A DNA stretch of 9,862 bases from positions 1-9,862 of IMG/VR virus record IMGVR_UViG_2778261457_000002; one strand, 5' to 3'. A model generated the notes under the pieces. The model made no database searches and was not told the DNA's origin. It worked only from the letters and a program-made list of their open reading frames with translations. The position numbers were made by a program, and so were the translations under genes. Positions 1-5,652 of the stretch are shown here, piece after piece (position 1 is the stretch's first letter; the number at the start of each line of letters is the position of its first letter). Source of the stretch: a virus. Lineage: Duplodnaviria > Heunggongvirae > Uroviricota > Caudoviricetes.

Positions 1-493
1 GCTTCCGCCCGGCCCGTAATTTCAGCTGAATCAGACTGATGGAAGCCATTGCAGCATCAATCAGCGACTGGCGCTTTGCTTCTGCCGCTTCTACTGCGGC
101 ACTATGCTGTGCCTCGGTATCCATCACCCATTTCTCACCATCCCATTTATCATATGGCGTTAACGGGGCGATAGTGGTTGTATTTTCAGGGTAATCACCC
201 AGAGCTGTGATTTCTTTCGATTCTCCTGTTTCGGTGCTATAGATGATTTCACCGCGATGGTCTGGCACATATTCCCAACCAGTTGAATCAGCATTACGGC
301 GTATTGCGAAACCGTCTTTATTGCCGCCTGGTGCATCAACGCATGAATGGGCAGGAACACCGACGCCAAACGGCAGATATTCAACCGATGAACCAATATA
401 TTCACGCGTCGAACCATCGTAGTTGTAAACGATAATATAGCCCGCATCCGTGGCAAATCCGTTTTCGTCTAAAGTAATTTGTTTCGTTGTCAT
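1..493 (-). CDS. tfa: Tail fibre assembly protein (Tfa; Mu U / P1 U' type), 3'-partial, continues beyond window start
   Basis: Minus-strand frame from ATG at 493..491, overlapping the upstream stop as TAATG, is open to base 1. Translation MTTKQITLDENGFATDAGYIIVYNYDGSTREYIGSS...AEAKRQSLIDAAMASISLIQLKLRAGRK ends in the conserved C-terminal motif of phage tail fibre assembly proteins. Absent from the ORF track because it has no stop in the window. Confidence 0.85.
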   Translation of the reverse strand, partial: MTTKQITLDENGFATDAGYIIVYNYDGSTREYIGSSVEYLPFGVGVPAHSCVDAPGGNKDGFAIRRNADSTGWEYVPDHRGEIIYSTETGESKEITALGDYPENTTTIAPLTPYDKWDGEKWVMDTEAQHSAAVEAAEAKRQSLIDAAMASISLIQLKLRAGRK

Positions 494-966
494 TATGCTG
501 CCCTCACTATGAAGTTGAACGCTATGTTACGCGGGCGGTTTTCTGTGGCAGTTGGGACTTTGGTAGATGCGTCAAAATAAGCACTTGCGTATTTGAGGTT
601 AGTGTCAACAGTTGAATCAGTAGCTACTGTCCTTTGGTTTACTCGATCTCTCCCCGAAAATACACCAGACACATTAGATAAAAGGCCATCTCCATACCAA
701 CCTACAGTACCAGTAATATTCCGAATGGCGTCACCCTGAGCAGACAGAATTTCGCGCCCCGCGTCAATACCGCGCCCGTCATCCCAGCCACGAATAAACT
801 CACCACGTAAATCTGGCAATTCATTTGTCGGATAAACTTTTGCCAGTTTCGGATACTCTTCGGCAGAAAAAGGCGCACCATTGCATTTCAGCCAGCCTGT
901 TGGCGGAGTGGCTGAAGGCCACGGAACAGGTACACCAACGGGTAATGCCGAACCTTCTCCTAAACC
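493..966 (-). CDS. Tail fibre protein variable C-terminal segment (Sv'-type cassette), 5'-truncated at the recombination site
   Basis: Minus-strand frame is open from 1002 to stop TAA at 495..493. Translation ...LPVGVPVPWPSATPPTGWLKCNGAPFSAEEYPKLAKVYPTNELPDLRGEFIRGWDDGRGIDAGREILSAQGDAIRNITG... looks like the variable C-terminal part of Mu S / P1 S-type fibres. No credible start: the ORF-track start is TTG at 819, and the frame runs through the cix-like site into the invertase 3' end. Coupled by TAATG to the downstream tfa. Confidence 0.75.
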   Translation of the reverse strand, partial: GLGEGSALPVGVPVPWPSATPPTGWLKCNGAPFSAEEYPKLAKVYPTNELPDLRGEFIRGWDDGRGIDAGREILSAQGDAIRNITGTVGWYGDGLLSNVSGVFSGRDRVNQRTVATDSTVDTNLKYASAYFDASTKVPTATENRPRNIAFNFIVRAA

Positions 967-980
967 AAGGTTTAGGATTG
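955..980. other. cix/gix-type site-specific recombination (crossover) site for the adjacent invertase
   Basis: TTCTCCTAAACC-AA-GGTTTAGGATTG: two 12-bp arms, with 9 of 12 bp forming a perfect inverted repeat (958-966 and 969-977), around a 2-bp AA core at 967-968. This is the architecture and AAACC/GGTTT core of gix/hix/cix sites. It lies at the junction between the invertase 3' end and the fibre variable segment. Confidence 0.8.
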
Positions 981-1532
981 AAATGATGACGCCGGAAACT
1001 TTTTATAAAGCGTGGAAACAGCCACATCATAGATGATTGCAACCTGCTTACGGGAGATGCCCTTCTCCAGCAATCGCCGCATTTGCTGCCATGTCTCTTC
1101 CTGGTATTTAGGCCGACGCCCACCTATTCGACCTTCTGCGCGAGCTGCATCAAGTCCAGCGCGTGTACGTTCAACAATAAGTTCACGTTCCATTTCTGCC
1201 AGCGCCCCCATTACGTGAAAGAAAAAGCGCCCCATTGGTGTACTGGTGTCGATGGAGTCAGTGAGACTCCGGAAGTTAATGCCTCTGTCACGCAGCTCTT
1301 CCACCAGCACAACTAAGTGACGCATGCTGCGCCCAAGACGATCTAACTTCCATACGACCAGGGTGTCACCTCTGGAAAGCATACGGAGAACCTTTTTTAA
1401 CCCAGGGCGTTCAGTCTTTTTGCCGCTCGCCTTGTCCTCAAAAATTAGCTCACATCCTGCGCTTTCAAGGGCATTTCTTTGTAAAGCCGTGTTTTGTTCA
1501 TTTGTTGATACACGAACATAGCCGATCAGCAT
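972..1532 (-). CDS. cin: Serine site-specific DNA invertase (Cin/Gin/Pin/Hin family), 186 aa
   Basis: ORF-track protein MLIGYVRVSTNEQNTALQRNAL...DTLVVWKLDRLGRSMRHLVVLVEELRDRGINFRSLTDSIDTSTPMGRFFFHVMGALAEMERELIVERT...VAIIYDVAVSTLYKK has the resolvase/invertase N-terminal catalytic serine motif (YVRVST), the conserved core, and a C-terminal helix-turn-helix. AGGAG sits 8 nt upstream of the ATG on the minus strand. Length matches P1 Cin (186 aa). The symbol cin is assigned from context (dar operon neighbour) and not from an alignment. Confidence 0.92.
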   Translation of the reverse strand: MLIGYVRVSTNEQNTALQRNALESAGCELIFEDKASGKKTERPGLKKVLRMLSRGDTLVVWKLDRLGRSMRHLVVLVEELRDRGINFRSLTDSIDTSTPMGRFFFHVMGALAEMERELIVERTRAGLDAARAEGRIGGRRPKYQEETWQQMRRLLEKGISRKQVAIIYDVAVSTLYKKFPASSFQS

Positions 1533-1653
1533 GAGTTTTTCTCCTATGCGTTGTTCTTATGAGTCTGCGAATTTTAAAGAGCAAAGCGTTATGCACAGAA
1601 ATAACAATCTGAATAGGTTCCTGATTGATTTTTGTTAGATCCGGGAGGAACTT

Positions 1654-1938
1654 ATGCAGATTTTGATTTTTTTAATGTCCATTATTAGTGGAACCTATTT
1701 ATTTCTTACTGGAGTTAGGCGTGGAGCTTATAAGCCATGTTTTTTACATTGGCTTGAAGCATGGCTGCTTGCCATAAAAGGTGGTTTTGTTGGTTTTTGT
1801 CTTGCAGAAGTTCAGTGGGGAAACTCATTTTTGGATGTGGTTGCTTTTTTGATATGTAGTTGGAATAGCCATTTTGTATTAAGAATAACCAAAGTATGGG
1901 TTTTTCACTTGATTTACGAATGTATTGGCAAATTATGA
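1654..1938 (+). CDS. Small hydrophobic membrane protein, LydC-like position (putative holin-associated), 94 aa
   Basis: GGGAGG sits 5 nt upstream of ATG 1654. The product is rich in Phe, Leu, Trp and Cys with 2-3 predicted hydrophobic helices. It is the first gene of the plus-strand operon, divergent from the invertase, which is the position of lydC in P1. The region is AT-rich. Confidence 0.5.
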   Translation: MQILIFLMSIISGTYLFLTGVRRGAYKPCFLHWLEAWLLAIKGGFVGFCLAEVQWGNSFLDVVAFLICSWNSHFVLRITKVWVFHLIYECIGKL

Positions 1939-1972
1939 ACAACCAGATGAGAAGTTACTTTGCATACCATTA

Positions 1973-1992
1973 CCTCCTGACAACGTAGGAGG
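1973..1992 (+). promoter_or_regulatory. Candidate RNA hairpin sequestering the holin ribosome-binding site
   Basis: CCTCCT (1973-1978) is the exact reverse complement of the Shine-Dalgarno AGGAGG (1987-1992), separated by an 8-nt loop, immediately upstream of the GTG start at 1999. Confidence 0.3.
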
Positions 1993-1998
1993 GAACTT

Positions 1999-2328
1999 GT
2001 GCTTGACACACAGGAATTAGCTCCAGTTGCTATTGCGCTCCTGCTTTCAGTAATTGGTGGGATAGGCACGTTCCTGATGGATGTCCGAGACGGTCGCCAG
2101 TCTGGCAATTTGTTGGGATTGGTTACGGAGATCTTTGTTGCAGTGACAGCTGGCGCGGTGGCGTACCTATTGGGGCAACACGAGGGCTGGGAGTTATCAA
2201 TTACGTACTTAATGGTAACGATAGCCAGCAATAACGGTCATGAGGTGATTTCAGGGATGAAACGAGTGAATATCGATAGCATTCTGAATGTTCTTACAAG
2301 TTTGGTGAAAAAGGGAGGCGGGAAATGA
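1999..2328 (+). CDS. lydA: Holin (LydA-like), 109 aa
   Basis: GTG start with AGGAGGG 5 nt upstream. Product has two hydrophobic helices (PVAIALLLSVIGGIGTFLM and LLGLVTEIFVAVTAGAVAYLL) and a charged C-terminal tail (KKGGGK), the holin architecture. Stop overlaps the next start as ATGA. Size and position match P1 LydA as recalled. Confidence 0.7.
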   Translation: MLDTQELAPVAIALLLSVIGGIGTFLMDVRDGRQSGNLLGLVTEIFVAVTAGAVAYLLGQHEGWELSITYLMVTIASNNGHEVISGMKRVNIDSILNVLTSLVKKGGGK

Positions 2329-2768
2329 TTGGCTGGGGTGTATGCGTTCTTGCGTTAGCCTTAGCCGATCGCTATTTGCTAAAACGCAAGGACATCACGC
2401 ATTTAGAACTTGGTGATGTGGAAATTAAACCGGGTTTCATCCGGGTGCCGTTCAAATACCGGTCTAAATTCCCGTTTTTGCGCGGCGCAACGGTCAGATA
2501 TTGGATCCGCGATGTTCAGAAGCCGACGACAGTGATTGAAGGCGAACAACGTTGTTTGACGTCGGCTGAACAGGGCGAAAACAGTGAATGGTTGTACATA
2601 CCCACTGAATATATGGGTAAAGGAGAGCGACTGTGGCATTTCAACGTCATGGTTACGCATGGCGACTCGTTCATTAACCCGTTGTATCGGATTTTCCCTG
2701 TTACTCAGCAAATCCGCAGAAGTTACGTAATAAATCTCGCACAGGATGTGTCAGATGACGAAAAATAA
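2325..2768 (+). CDS. lydB: Antiholin / lysis regulator (LydB-like), 147 aa
   Basis: ATG at 2325 overlaps the holin stop (ATGA), with AAGGGAGG 6 nt upstream. Product has an N-terminal hydrophobic segment followed by a soluble domain. Size and position match P1 LydB as recalled. Confidence 0.6.
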   Translation: MIGWGVCVLALALADRYLLKRKDITHLELGDVEIKPGFIRVPFKYRSKFPFLRGATVRYWIRDVQKPTTVIEGEQRCLTSAEQGENSEWLYIPTEYMGKGERLWHFNVMVTHGDSFINPLYRIFPVTQQIRRSYVINLAQDVSDDEK

Positions 2769-3357
2769 GTATGCAACGGTCGATTTTGACCAGGTTAATG
2801 AAAAGGGGCTGAAATCCCTTATCGCGGCGATCAATAAAACCGGTGTTACGGTAATTGAGGTTGACTCCAGCAACCGCGCAACAACGAAAGATGGCGTTAA
2901 AGTTAAAACCGCAAAGCTGGTTCTTAACGATGGACAAATTCTTGCCATACAGGTAAACGATACTGGCGATATATCGTCTGTGAAGCTGAATGGAAAAGCT
3001 ATTCCTAACGCTCAGTCTCCGGATATCAAGACGCTTGGTACCGTCATGGGGCAAGCGGCCCGCAAAAACTCCGCAAAATTCCAGAAATCACTGATCGCCA
3101 AAGCGAAACGTGTTGCCAATCCGGTAGACAAGAAACCGGCAGTAAAATCCAACTTTCAGCGCCTGCAAGAGGCAAAACAGCGGAATGCTCAGGTGGTTGC
3201 CGCTTATAAGTCCGCGCAGAATTCGGTGTCTTTCAATCAACAGCAGATCACTGATTTGCGGGCGAAGCTGGATAAGGAGACGGGCCGACTCAATAACGAA
3301 AAGGCACGGAATGGCGAACTCAAACGTCGTCTTAAGCAACTGAAAGCAGGAAATTAA
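2755..3357 (+). CDS. hdf: Hdf-like protein (homolog of the DarA N-terminal region), about 200 aa
   Basis: Open frame 2746-3357. The ATG at 2755 is preferred because AGGA sits 8 nt upstream, whereas the ATG at 2746 has no spacer. Overlaps the lydB 3' end by 14 nt. Product shares short motifs with the next protein (KNSAKFQ; LNDGQILAIQ versus LSDGQTISIL) and has a coiled-coil-like C-terminus. Confidence 0.65.
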   Translation: MTKNKYATVDFDQVNEKGLKSLIAAINKTGVTVIEVDSSNRATTKDGVKVKTAKLVLNDGQILAIQVNDTGDISSVKLNGKAIPNAQSPDIKTLGTVMGQAARKNSAKFQKSLIAKAKRVANPVDKKPAVKSNFQRLQEAKQRNAQVVAAYKSAQNSVSFNQQQITDLRAKLDKETGRLNNEKARNGELKRRLKQLKAGN

Positions 3358-3358
3358 C

Positions 3359-5278
3359 ATGGAACAGTTCAATATCAATAAAGGGATGACGATCAAGCCT
3401 GGGCTTGACGTGCTTCCCCCGCCAGTGACTGATGATGAATATCGCGCATTAATGGCCGGTGAGGACCGCTATCTGATGACGGAATCCAACACCCTGGAGG
3501 AAATCGAGGCTACGTTCTTCTATGACACGCCGATCCACTGGTGTGCTACGGATTTACTGGAGGCGATTAGTTCTACTCGTTTGCAGTTACACCGGACCAT
3601 GCAGGCATTTGTCCGGGCATTGAACCAGAAGCTGAATGGTACCGGAATCTCTGCGGGGAGTGATAAAACGGGGGATGTGGCCCAGAGCGGCGCGCGCGCG
3701 ATCGGCGGCGCTGAAATTGGCCGGGCACGTAACGTTAACGGGCTGCCGGTCTTGCCAGCCATTATTCCGCTCAGTGATGGTCAGACTATCAGCATTCTGT
3801 TTCATAGCCCGACAGCGGAAAACCGGATCACCAATAGCGATACGCTGGTTGCTTTCCAGTTCTTACTGAATAAAAAAGACGTTACTCACACAGTTGCTCC
3901 GATGAGTGGACGTGATATGACGCTGGCGCAGGTCACCATGAAACTTGCCAACCTTGCAGAGAAAAACTCGGCAAAATTCCAGCGTGCGCAGAAGAAGAAA
4001 AAAGCCCTTGTTGATGAAATAACCCAACTACAGGCTGACAGTGACCAGAAAGAGGATGCCATGAGCGACCTCGCGGATCAGGTGGCAGCGGTAGAAGGGC
4101 AGAAGGCAGATCTGGAGCAGAAAATTAACGCTGTTGCATCGGAAGCGGATTCCCTTTATGAAGAGAATGAGCGTTTGCAGACGGAGATTGATCGGCTCAA
4201 TCGCACTGGTGGGCGCGATACCATTGCCCCTGCGGGGATGACTGGTGGGCACTCTCGCGCGCTGACGGATCGCCTTGCCAGTATCAAAAATCGTATGCAT
4301 ATGGACGGGGAAGCGACGCTCAGTAATGGTGCATCAATGAAGCAATTCATTGGGGATGGCGAAGGGTATATCCAGTTAACCGATCCGGATGGCAGCGTGT
4401 ACATGATCAAGGCTAAATCCATACAGGGTGTGGACATGGCAGATGCGATCGGCAAGCTGTTTAAAGCCTATAAAGCGGGTAATGTATCGGAATATCTGGT
4501 CCAACCAGAAGAACATAAACCGGAAAACGTCGAACCTGAATCAGCGGAGGATACCGGTAGCTCTTCGCCTGAACCAGAAGTCTCTGTAGGTGCATATCGA
4601 TATGCCCTGCAAATGCGTCCGGCGGCCCCTGGCGCGATACCTGAAGGTAACAAAGCAATTCTTCCGCGCCCTGATGAAGGTGACCCGTATTATGAATATG
4701 CACGCTACGGCATTGCTACTTACGATACCCCGCTTTCTGATCAGCAAATGAGTGAGTACGATCTGAAGTTATTGCCTCGCGAGGATTCTTTCGACTTCCT
4801 GGCGAAGACACTTACTAATGGTCCGTTTGGCAAATATGCACAAAAAGCTCTGGAGCTGGCCACCAACTCACCAGACGAGTTCCGCGTAATGCTGAAAACT
4901 CAGTTTCAAAAAACTTTCCCCAATATTGCGTTTCCGGGTGGCGCTGGCACCGAGAAAATGGTGCAGAGCATGATCAATGCATTGCAGGCCGAAGTCGGTG
5001 AGATTACTCAGCCAGAACCGGCCCCGGCACAGCCTGATGAAACGGTTAGCGAAGCAGATGCAGAGGCTAATAAAGCCATTGAATATCTCAATAACGTGAT
5101 GGATATGCAAAGCACTGACATGGCGGAGATCCGTAACGCCCGGGGTAATGTCCGGGAAGCGATTGCAGCCCTTCAGACTGCCGGGCGTTTTGAGGAAAAC
5201 GAAGAGCTGGTTAATGGCGCAGCTCGCCACCTGGCTGATCTGCTGGTAGCAATCCAGAAAGCGGGGGTAGCAGCATGA
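3359..5278 (+). CDS. darA: DarA-like antirestriction internal head protein, 639 aa
   Basis: AGGAAA sits 7 nt upstream of ATG 3359, 1 nt after the hdf stop. The 639-aa product has a central coiled-coil (QLQADSDQKEDAMSDLADQVAAVEGQKADLEQKINAVASEADSLYEENERLQTEIDRL) and acidic, proline-rich linkers. Size and position match P1 DarA as recalled. Confidence 0.7.
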   Translation: MEQFNINKGMTIKPGLDVLPPPVTDDEYRALMAGEDRYLMTESNTLEEIEATFFYDTPIHWCATDLLEAISSTRLQLHRTMQAFVRALNQKLNGTGISAGSDKTGDVAQSGARAIGGAEIGRARNVNGLPVLPAIIPLSDGQTISILFHSPTAENRITNSDTLVAFQFLLNKKDVTHTVAPMSGRDMTLAQVTMKLANLAEKNSAKFQRAQKKKKALVDEITQLQADSDQKEDAMSDLADQVAAVEGQKADLEQKINAVASEADSLYEENERLQTEIDRLNRTGGRDTIAPAGMTGGHSRALTDRLASIKNRMHMDGEATLSNGASMKQFIGDGEGYIQLTDPDGSVYMIKAKSIQGVDMADAIGKLFKAYKAGNVSEYLVQPEEHKPENVEPESAEDTGSSSPEPEVSVGAYRYALQMRPAAPGAIPEGNKAILPRPDEGDPYYEYARYGIATYDTPLSDQQMSEYDLKLLPREDSFDFLAKTLTNGPFGKYAQKALELATNSPDEFRVMLKTQFQKTFPNIAFPGGAGTEKMVQSMINALQAEVGEITQPEPAPAQPDETVSEADAEANKAIEYLNNVMDMQSTDMAEIRNARGNVREAIAALQTAGRFEENEELVNGAARHLADLLVAIQKAGVAA

Positions 5279-5640
5279 CACTATCAGCTATTGAGTTAAT
5301 GGACCTCAGCGATAAGTTGGATGCTCTGATGTCCAAAGCAGCTACCGCGAGTGGCATGGAGTTGCTGGATATCAGCGATGAAATTGACCAGATCATGCAA
5401 CAGATGGGGTACGGCGCGTCTGGCGACGGTAGTGGCGAGGAGAAACAACCTTCGGAACATGATGGTGTGCCAAAACTGGTTGCTGATTTCCTGGCTGATA
5501 AATTCGTCGATCAGAGCACAGATGCATTTATCGGTACGTTACAGGACTTGAGTCAATATGTTGGCATATACATCGACCTGGACCAGGTTAAACAGCACAC
5601 GGCGGCATGGATAGCCGCCAACATTAAAGAGGCAGCATAA
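5275..5640 (+). CDS. ddrA: DdrA-like small acidic protein, 121 aa
   Basis: ATG overlaps the darA stop (ATGA). Product has 22 Asp/Glu against 7 Lys and no Arg. Position and size match P1 DdrA as recalled. Confidence 0.6.
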   Translation: MTLSAIELMDLSDKLDALMSKAATASGMELLDISDEIDQIMQQMGYGASGDGSGEEKQPSEHDGVPKLVADFLADKFVDQSTDAFIGTLQDLSQYVGIYIDLDQVKQHTAAWIAANIKEAA

Positions 5641-5652
5641 GGCGTAACACGG

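What the first reader, a model, noticed from the sequence alone, without database searches (positions are those of the whole stretch)
1..1532. One end of an invertase-driven tail-fibre host-range switch (C-segment-like)
A Cin/Gin-family invertase lies next to a promoterless fibre variable cassette and a tail fibre assembly gene, all on the minus strand. That is the layout of the right end of the P1 C segment or Mu G segment. Only one boundary is in the window; the alternative cassette, the second crossover site and the constant fibre N-terminus must lie left of base 1. This is a known kind of system, but the cassette sequences decide receptor specificity and vary between relatives.
Basis: partly seen in the sequence, partly recalled or inferred. 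Interest (0 to 1): 0.45.

Follow-up and report, generated by a model that had tools for sequence, protein, structure and literature searches.

The report
P1 Cin tail-fibre switch, swapped cassettes
This is the cin-proximal end of the well-known phage P1 invertase switch that flips a DNA segment to change the tail-fibre tip, sitting in a P1-like plasmid prophage whose flippable segment has been replaced by a shorter e14/lambdoid-type one; it is ordinary and already understood.

Summary
Window 955-9862 is phage P1 backbone: cin, lydC, lydA, lydB, hdf, darA, ddrA, ddrB, hxr, isaB and an IS1 end. Bases 1942-9862 are 99.8% identical to P1.

Cin (972-1532, minus strand) is 98.9% identical in amino acids to P1 Cin. 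The 26-bp site at 955-980 is P1's cixL, and homology to P1 and P7 stops exactly there.

To its left lie a fibre C-terminal cassette with no start codon (493-966, tail-collar domain) and a tail fibre assembly gene (1-494, cut by the window edge).

In the nearest relatives, 98-99.8% identical to bases 1-1700, the predicted partners are present. A second, inverted cix lies 1,855 bp to the left, followed by an opposite-strand cassette/tfa pair and the P1 S constant region.

Two 91,904-bp Salmonella plasmids are 99.99% identical in the flanks and carry the segment in opposite orientations. Their junctions are swapped exactly at the CC-TT-GG core.

The cassettes are not of the P1/Mu type. They resemble the e14 P segment (TfaE 80.5%, StfE' 57%, TfaP 56%). 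The same segment, 99.4% identical, sits in a lambdoid prophage.

The mechanism is textbook. The cin/C-segment region is a published variable region of P1-like plasmids. Low interest.

The parts
1..494 (-). 5' 164 codons of a 202-codon tail fibre assembly gene (counterpart of U', TfaE-like), cut by the window edge. Its ATG at 494-492 overlaps the cassette stop (TAATG), and a GAGGG Shine-Dalgarno-like motif lies upstream.
   Evidence: Translation. The full 202-aa copy in L004 8885-9493 matches Caudo_TAP (PF02413, E=4.8e-32) and phrog_105 (E=5.6e-93). It is 80.5% identical to e14 TfaE. The window part is 100% identical in amino acids to the copies in L003 and L005.
493..966 (-). Silent fibre C-terminal cassette (counterpart of Sv') with no start codon. 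It encodes ...LGLGEGSALPVGVPVPW... through to ...NFIVRAA and a stop at 493-495.
   Evidence: No ATG, GTG or TTG between the upstream in-frame stop (inside cin) and the TTG at 819. Collar domain PF07484 (E=1.1e-14) and phrog_523 tail collar fibre (E=1.3e-72). 100% amino-acid identity to the C-terminus of the fused, expressed-position S gene in L003. 57% identical to e14 stfE'. No tblastn hit to P1 or Mu.
955..980 (.). cixL crossover site: two imperfectly symmetric 12-bp half-sites around the 2-bp core AA/TT at 967-968. The outer half (969-980) is identical to P1 cixL and holds the cin stop codon (972-974). The inner half (955-966) belongs to the cassette.
   Evidence: Unique in the window, with 0 of 200 shuffles matching. 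Aligned with the annotated P1 cixL and cixR. Homology to P1 and P7 ends at 955. The junctions in the L002/L003 isomers are swapped exactly at the core.
972..1532 (-). cin, a serine DNA invertase of 186 aa. It is intact and has the Ser9 nucleophile in the motif GYVRVSTNEQ.
   Evidence: 98.9% amino-acid identity to P1 Cin, 82.9% to e14 PinE and 76.8% to Mu Gin. Of 20 nucleotide differences from P1, 17 are at third codon positions and only 2 change an amino acid.
1443..1514 (-). Recombinational enhancer inside the cin 5' coding region, assigned by homology. It is presumed to bind Fis.
   Evidence: Corresponds to cin nucleotides 19-90, which the P1 record annotates as 'enhancer of Cin-mediated C-segment inversion'. 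The alignment shows 5 mismatches in 72 positions. Function was not tested.
1533..1653 (.). Divergent cin/lydC intergenic region, where P1 has its predicted cin promoters. It is poorly conserved with P1 here.
   Evidence: P1cin and P2cin are annotated in P1. The alignment is weak upstream of the ATG. The consensus scan found no sigma-70 match here. Promoter position is therefore not established.

Best explanation
The window holds the cin-proximal boundary of a working two-state tail-fibre switch in a P1-like plasmid prophage.

**Proposed mechanism.** Cin dimers bind the 26-bp cix site at 955-980 and a second, inverted cix about 1.86 kb to the left, outside the window. Helped by the enhancer inside the cin 5' end, they exchange strands at the central TT/AA dinucleotide and flip the segment.

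**The segment.** It carries two convergent pairs, each made of a fibre C-terminal cassette without a start codon and its own assembly chaperone gene.

**Expression.** Only the pair that lies next to the constant S N-terminus is joined in frame through the shared ...Y/N-L-G-L-G-E... codons of the crossover site. That pair is transcribed with R and S, presumably from the late promoter upstream of R as in P1.

**State captured in the window.** The collar-type cassette and the 202-aa chaperone sit next to cin, so they are silent. The gp53-like cassette and the 146-aa chaperone would be the expressed pair.

**Shown versus inferred.**
- Shown: gene identities; site identity with P1 cixL; presence and position of the partner site in relatives; in-frame fusions; both orientations among near-identical plasmids.
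- Inferred: enhancer and Fis dependence; late-promoter control; and that the two tips confer different receptor specificities.
For: - The backbone is P1. Window 1942-9862 is 99.8% identical to P1, and 955-9862 matches P1 23320-32237.
- Cin is 98.9% identical to P1 Cin and shows a synonymous-biased substitution pattern.
- cixL matches P1's annotated site, and the cin stop codon sits in its outer half-site as in P1.
- L004 and L002 show Sc, cix, Sv, U, then U', Sv', cix and cin. A single 23-nt inverted-repeat pair lies 1,831 nt apart.
- L002 and L003 are both 91,904 bp and 99.99% identical over 8,124-bp flanks. The 1,877-bp middle is inverted, and the half-sites are reciprocally swapped at the CC-TT-GG core.
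- In PLSDB, the cin|collar-cassette junction occurs in 4 records and the cin|gp53-like junction in 9. Both states occur within a Salmonella set and within a Shigella dysenteriae set.
- A simulated inversion of L004 gives an in-frame 537-aa S'.
- The cassette has no own start codon, and there is no promoter-like site between cin and the cassette.
Against: - The partner site, the alternative cassette and Sc are not in the window. They are inferred from relatives that are 98-99.8% identical, not from the source molecule itself.
- No record in the three collections searched is identical to the whole window.
- The inner half-sites (GGTTTAGGAGAA and GGTTTGGGAGAG) differ from P1's GGTTTAAGAGAA at 1-3 positions. 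Inversion rate could therefore differ from P1's.
- Opposite orientations in different assemblies show that inversion has happened in the lineage. They say nothing about its frequency in this isolate.
- In L004, PGAP splits the silent cassette into two pseudogene fragments. However, the simulated fusion in L004 reads through without interruption.
Confidence: 0.93

Rival explanations
1. The switch is a frozen remnant. cin and one cix survive, but the segment no longer inverts because of the foreign inner half-sites or a lost partner site. The cassette next to cin would then be a permanently silent pseudogene fragment.
For: - Published surveys report that many P1-like plasmids have truncated cin or a modified or deleted C segment (PMC6906374).
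- The inner half-sites differ from P1's.
- PGAP annotates the silent cassette as pseudogene pieces in L004.
Against: - cin is intact and its substitutions are mostly synonymous: 17 of 20 are at third codon positions.
- The cassette frame is uninterrupted and 100% identical to copies in the expressed position.
- Both orientations occur in two independent sets of near-identical plasmids, with exact reciprocal junctions.
Confidence: 0.04
2. The fibre ORF next to cin is an independent, complete small 'phage tail protein' gene. PGAP annotates it this way in L002 (165 aa, starting inside the cin 3' end). It would be expressed by read-through from cin regardless of orientation.
For: - PGAP calls a CDS at L002 9493-9987.
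- cin and the cassette are on the same strand with no terminator-like site between them.
- The downstream tfa has its own ATG and a Shine-Dalgarno-like motif, so it could be translated from a cin read-through transcript.
Against: - The annotated start corresponds to an ATC codon. There is no ATG, GTG or TTG before the internal TTG at 819.
- The protein matches only the C-terminal ends of long fibre families, for example phrog_523 positions 479-638 of 673.
- The same cassette is fused to a 453-aa Sc in L003.
Confidence: 0.02
3. The region is a multi-site shufflon of the p15B Min type, with more than two crossover sites and several cassettes, rather than a two-state switch.
For: - P1-like plasmids related to p15B exist, and some carry Min-like invertases (PMC6906374).
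- The left part of the system is outside the window.
Against: - In L002 and L004 only one pair of cix-like inverted repeats lies between R and cin.
- Only two cassette/chaperone pairs are present.
- The window itself holds one site.
Confidence: 0.01

Closest known systems
Phage P1 cin / C-segment inversion system (P1 record AF234172; Iida et al. 1982, cited via PMC6906374; Lobocka et al. 2004 from my own knowledge)
   Same: - Same genomic locus and neighbours: lydC, lydA, lydB and the dar operon on one side, R and Sc on the other.
- Cin is 98.9% identical.
- The outer half-sites of cixL and cixR are identical, with the same TT core.
- The cin stop codon lies inside cixL.
- The enhancer region is 93% conserved.
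- Same logic: a constant Sc is fused to one of two Sv cassettes, each with its own chaperone gene.
   Different: - The invertible segment is 1,855 bp, against 4,256 bp in P1.
- The terminal inverted repeats are only 23 nt, not about 0.6 kb.
- The cassettes and chaperones have no detectable similarity to P1 Sv, Sv', U or U' beyond weak matches at the chaperone C-termini.
e14 cryptic prophage P segment with PinE (E. coli K-12; stfP, tfaP, tfaE, stfE', pinE)
   Same: - Nearly the same size: 1,797 bp according to PMC12529663, against 1,855 bp here.
- Same content and order: a short fibre tip, a ~140-aa Tfa, a convergent ~200-aa Tfa, a collar-type tip, then the invertase.
- TfaE is 80.5% identical, stfE' 57% and TfaP 56%.
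   Different: - The invertase here is Cin (82.9% identical to PinE) and is transcribed towards the segment. pinE is transcribed away from it.
- The constant part here is the P1 S N-terminus on a myovirus plasmid prophage, not the e14 fibre stub.
Invertible side-tail-fibre tips of lambdoid prophages (for example the dusA prophage of E. coli FJ_Ec_21, locus L005) and the HK97 Stf/Tfa C-termini
   Same: - The whole 1,860-bp segment is 99.4% identical between the plasmid (L004) and the lambdoid prophage. Homology ends at the two crossover cores.
- The window's cassette and chaperone are 100% identical in amino acids to the prophage copies.
- HK97 stf/tfa is 85.7% identical in nucleotides.
   Different: - The prophage invertase is only 52.7% identical to Cin.
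- The outer half-sites differ.
- The constant part there is a lambdoid Stf N-terminal domain.
Mu gin / G segment
   Same: Same family of invertase (76.8% identity) and the same Sc/Sv/U/U'/Sv' logic.
   Different: - The Mu cassettes are of the P1 type and unrelated to those here.
- gin is transcribed away from the G segment.
- The G segment is 3 kb.

Membership tests
Cin/Gin/Hin/Pin DNA invertases (small serine recombinases) | N-terminal resolvase catalytic domain with a serine nucleophile near residue 9-10, plus a C-terminal HTH_7 domain, in a protein of about 185-195 aa | tested here: met
   PF00239 (E=2.4e-51, residues 3-135) and PF02796 (E=2.2e-18, residues 138-181); 186 aa; Ser9 in GYVRVSTNEQ.
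Cin/Gin/Hin/Pin DNA invertases (small serine recombinases) | High identity to characterised members | tested here: met
   98.9% to P1 Cin, 82.9% to PinE and 76.8% to Gin.
Cin/Gin/Hin/Pin DNA invertases (small serine recombinases) | 26-bp crossover sites made of two 12-bp half-sites around a 2-bp core, present as an inverted pair flanking the segment | tested here: met
   One site in the window at 955-980. The inverted partner was found only in relatives L002 and L004, 1,855 bp away. The pair could not be tested on the source molecule itself.
Cin/Gin/Hin/Pin DNA invertases (small serine recombinases) | Fis-dependent recombinational enhancer in cis | tested here: inconclusive
   The stretch homologous to P1's annotated enhancer (window 1443-1514) is 93% conserved. 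Fis binding and enhancer function cannot be tested with these tools.
Cin/Gin/Hin/Pin DNA invertases (small serine recombinases) | Actual inversion of the flanked segment | tested here: met
   Near-identical plasmids carry both orientations with reciprocal junctions at the core. This is evidence at lineage level, not for this isolate.
P1 C segment in the strict sense | About 4.2-kb segment with about 0.6-kb terminal inverted repeats shared by Sv and Sv' | tested here: not met
   The segment is 1,855 bp and the only flanking inverted repeat is 23 nt. P1 has a 4,256-bp segment according to the annotation.
P1 C segment in the strict sense | Cassettes homologous to P1/Mu Sv, Sv', U and U' | tested here: not met
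   tblastn of the window's cassette and tfa against the P1 and Mu loci gave no hit at E<=0.01. Only weak similarity (26-31%) exists between chaperone C-termini.
P1 C segment in the strict sense | Located between cin and the constant part of gene S in a P1-type genome | tested here: met
   The cin side is shown in the window. The Sc side is shown in relatives, where R+Sc is 98.5% identical to P1 up to cixR.
e14-type P segment | About 1.8-kb segment with stfP-like and stfE'-like tips and TfaP-like and TfaE-like chaperones in convergent pairs | tested here: met
   Architecture. Identities are 56-80%. One pair is in the window and the other pair is seen in relatives.
e14-type P segment | Inverted by its adjacent Pin invertase | tested here: not met
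   The adjacent invertase is Cin, 98.9% identical to P1 Cin and 82.9% to PinE.

The most novel reading that the evidence does not exclude
The invertible segment may behave as a portable cartridge. It would be exchanged between unrelated prophages in the same cell (a lambdoid siphovirus prophage and a P1-like myovirus plasmid) by invertase-catalysed recombination at the crossover cores, rather than by ordinary homologous recombination.

Three observations fit this reading:
- Homology between the plasmid and prophage copies (99.4%) ends within 3 nt of the two cores.
- Strains EC23HZZ201 and FJ_Ec_21 each carry both a plasmid copy and a chromosomal copy.
- The two hosts' invertases are only 53% identical.

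A second speculative layer concerns defence. The fibre-tip fusion might be made in the lysogen and block superinfecting phages, as reported for the homologous e14 segment and StfE2 (PMC12529663).

The first idea was already proposed in the 1990s for P1, p15B, Mu and e14 (Sandmeier, Iida and Arber; from my own knowledge), so even if true it adds little.
Probability: 0.15. Interest if true: 0.4.

Novelty: already known. Interest (0 to 1): 0.15.

Why it matters
Practically, the cassette pair decides which bacteria this P1-like plasmid prophage can adsorb to and transduce. P1-like phage-plasmids spread resistance genes among E. coli, Salmonella and Shigella from livestock and humans (PMC9603915, PMC9600943).

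Knowing that this lineage carries e14/lambdoid-type tips rather than P1's S and S' means that P1 host-range data should not be extrapolated to it.

Conceptually nothing new is added. The mechanism, the locus and the mosaic evolution of fibre tips at crossover sites are all established.

Tried and rejected
- **P1/Mu-type cassettes.** tblastn of the window's cassette and tfa against the P1 C segment and Mu G segment gave no hits. The idea that these are P1/Mu-type cassettes was dropped.
- **p15B Min region.** The absence of extra cix-like sites in relatives argues against a Min-type multi-site shufflon.
- **Extra crossover sites in the window.** A relaxed core pattern gave only chance-level hits: 3 found against 1.5 expected, with only the true site matching exactly.
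- **Promoters and terminators, 1-2100.** One promoter-like hit was found inside tfa against 3.0 expected, and one terminator-like hit inside cin against 2.2 expected. Neither is meaningful.
- **Rfam.** The scan of the whole window found nothing at gathering thresholds.
- **Source record.** No record identical to the whole window was found in phages, plasmids or E. coli complete genomes. The best is pHZZ201-90K, at 99.8% over 1-1700 and 98.9% over 1-5636, and it has an IS insertion that the window lacks.
Full report
**1. What is in the window**

On the minus strand the ORF table and frame translations show three elements.
- An intact 186-aa ORF at 972-1532.
- A frame that stays open from inside that ORF's 3' end down to a stop at 493-495. 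It has no ATG, GTG or TTG before an internal TTG at 819.
- An ORF that starts at ATG 494-492 and runs off the window at base 1.

Pfam assigns them as follows.
- The first ORF has Resolvase (E=2.4e-51) plus HTH_7 (E=2.2e-18).
- The second has a Phage Tail Collar domain (E=1.1e-14).
- The full-length relative of the third has Caudo_TAP (E=4.8e-32).

PHROGs gives DNA invertase, tail collar fibre protein (matching only profile positions 479-638 of 673) and tail fibre assembly.

The 26-bp sequence at 955-980 is TTCTCCTAAACC-AA-GGTTTAGGATTG. It is an imperfect palindrome and unique in the window. None of 200 shuffles gave a match, even with three mismatches allowed.

**2. Where it comes from**

Window 955-9862 matches phage P1 positions 23320-32237. 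In window order this region contains cin, lydC, lydA, lydB, hdf, darA, ddrA, ddrB (with the antisense iddB ORF), hxr, isaB and the first 74 bp of IS1. The IS1 sits at the same insertion site as in P1.

Identity to P1 is uneven.
- Bases 1942-9862 are 99.8% identical.
- cin and its upstream region (955-1585) are only 93.8% identical.
- lydC (1586-1941) has no P1 match and is P7-like.

Cin is still 98.9% identical in protein to P1 Cin. Of 20 nucleotide differences, 17 fall at third codon positions. That pattern indicates purifying selection.

Homology to every P1 and P7 record stops exactly at base 955, the inner edge of the crossover site.

**3. The site is cixL**

The window site was aligned with the annotated P1 sites.

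| Site | Outer half | Core | Inner half |
|---|---|---|---|
| Window | CAATCCTAAACC | TT | GGTTTAGGAGAA |
| P1 cixL | CAATCCTAAACC | TT | GGTTTAAGAGAA |

The outer half is identical to P1 cixL. The cin stop codon (972-974) lies inside it, 4 nt from the core, as in P1. Only the inner, segment-side half differs.

The stretch homologous to the annotated P1 recombinational enhancer (cin nucleotides 19-90, window 1443-1514) has 5 mismatches in 72 positions.

**4. The missing half, recovered from relatives**

The closest record is E. coli plasmid pHZZ201-90K (L004), 99.8% identical over window 1-1700. A Salmonella 4,[5],12:i:- IncY plasmid (L002) is 97.7-97.9% identical over the same stretch. Both show the same layout to the left of the window:
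- R
- S, made of P1-type Sc fused to a gp53-like tip
- a 146-aa Tfa
- a convergent 202-aa Tfa
- the collar cassette
- cin

R+Sc of L002 is 98.5% identical to P1 right up to cixR.

A single pair of cix-like inverted repeats brackets the segment. Their cores are 1,855 bp apart. There are no further sites and no long inverted repeats. The Sc-side site is TTATCCAATACC-TT-GGTTTGGGAGAG, and its outer half is identical to P1 cixR.

**5. Evidence that it inverts**

L002 and L003 are two 91,904-bp Salmonella plasmids. Their 8,124-bp flanks are 99.99% identical, but the central 1,877 bp is in opposite orientation.

The four junction sequences are exact reciprocal recombinants at the CC-TT-GG core.

| Plasmid | Junctions |
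|---|---|
| L002 | Sc\|GGTTTGGG and cin\|GGTTTAGG |
| L003 | cin\|GGTTTGGG and Sc\|GGTTTAGG |

In L003 the window's cassette is part of a 611-aa S gene and is 100% identical in amino acids to the window copy. Simulating the inversion in L004 gives an in-frame 537-aa S'.

A junction census of PLSDB gives 4 records with cin|collar and 9 with cin|gp53-like. Both states occur within the Salmonella set and within a set of ~80-kb Shigella dysenteriae plasmids. About 280 plasmid records match the cin end, so this segment type is carried by a small minority of P1-like plasmids.

**6. What the segment is related to**

It is not a P1 or Mu segment. tblastn of the cassette and chaperone against the P1 C region and the Mu G region finds nothing.

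It matches the e14 P segment in size, order and sequence: TfaE 80.5%, stfE' 57% and TfaP 56%. It also resembles HK97-type Stf/Tfa tips, at 85.7% nucleotide identity.

The whole 1,860-bp segment is 99.4% identical to one in a lambdoid prophage at dusA in E. coli FJ_Ec_21. Homology ends within 3 nt of the two cores, and that prophage's invertase is only 52.7% identical to Cin.

This is the familiar picture of fibre tips moving as modules bounded by crossover sites. It was described for P1, p15B, Mu and e14 in the early 1990s (from my own knowledge; I could not retrieve those papers here). Recent surveys list lydC-cin-Sv'-U'-U-S as one of the hypervariable regions of P1-like phage-plasmids (PMC9603915; PMC6906374).

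**7. Mechanism**

Shown:
- an intact Cin
- an authentic cixL
- a partner site at 1.86 kb in relatives
- cassettes without start codons that become complete genes only when fused to Sc
- both isomers in nature

Inferred from P1 biology (annotation):
- synapsis of Cin dimers with a Fis-bound enhancer inside cin
- strand exchange at the TT/AA core
- transcription of R, S and U from the late promoter upstream of R
- different receptor specificity for the two tips

In the orientation captured by the window, the collar cassette and the 202-aa chaperone are the silent pair.

**8. Rivals**

- *Frozen remnant.* Unlikely, given the intact genes and the isomers.
- *Independent small tail protein gene (PGAP's call in L002).* This rests on an ATC start and is contradicted by the C-terminal-only homology.
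- *Min-type multi-site shufflon.* Not supported by the site count in relatives.

**9. Verdict**

It concerns a textbook system at its textbook locus. The only departure is a cassette swap of a kind already documented, and near-identical sequences are public. Novelty: already known. At most it is a not-yet-described member, combining a P1 backbone with an e14-type segment. Interest 0.15.

Noticed in passing
window 955-1941 versus 1942-9862: The backbone is a mosaic. Bases 1942-9862 are 99.8% identical to P1 (16 mismatches in 7,921). cin and its upstream region are only 93.8% identical. lydC (1586-1941) has no P1 match and resembles P7 (95.8%). A recombination boundary therefore sits near the lydC/lydA junction, around 1942, in addition to the one at cixL.
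   Followed up: partly
window 9789-9862: The window ends in the left end of IS1 (GGTGATGCTGCCAACTTACTGATTTAGTG...), inserted next to isaB at the same position as in laboratory P1. Many P1-like plasmids match only up to 9788 and lack this IS1.
   Followed up: partly
L005 4477-7125 (E. coli FJ_Ec_21 chromosome, lambdoid prophage at dusA): The same invertible segment (99.4%) is served by an invertase only 52.7% identical to Cin. The invertase-side outer half-site (ATATTTCAAAGG) barely resembles a cix half-site, and the constant stf is annotated as a pseudogene, so that copy may be locked. Strains FJ_Ec_21 and EC23HZZ201 each carry both a chromosomal and a P1-like plasmid copy of the segment.
   Followed up: partly
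L004 6974-8112 versus L002 6752-8112 and P1: The constant S part varies in length among relatives. It is about 380 aa in L004 and 453 aa in L002 and P1. The 222-nt difference equals the length of one of P1's annotated 'b' repeat elements, and L004 aligns to P1 in two overlapping pieces across that region.
   Followed up: no
L004 14680-15888; L001 14028-15053: Several relatives have an IS200/IS605-family (TnpB / IS609) insertion between ddrA and ddrB. The window lacks it at the corresponding point, around 5640-5652.
   Followed up: no
window 6207-6605 (minus strand): A 132-aa antisense ORF inside ddrB corresponds to the P1 annotation 'iddB', of unknown function.
   Followed up: no
L004 8885-8913 and 8823-8966: The two convergent tfa genes overlap by 29 bp at their 3' ends. 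A 24-nt imperfect inverted repeat (79% complementary, 96 nt apart) straddles the overlap. It could be a bidirectional terminator or just the shared C-terminal chaperone motif read on both strands.
   Followed up: no
e14 P segment (L009 2786-4656), literature: A 2025 paper reports that inversion of the homologous 1,797-bp e14 segment by PinQ creates a fusion protein, StfE2, that blocks phage T2 adsorption (PMC12529663). Whether fibre-tip fusions from P1-like plasmids are made in lysogens and have a similar effect was not examined.
   Followed up: no
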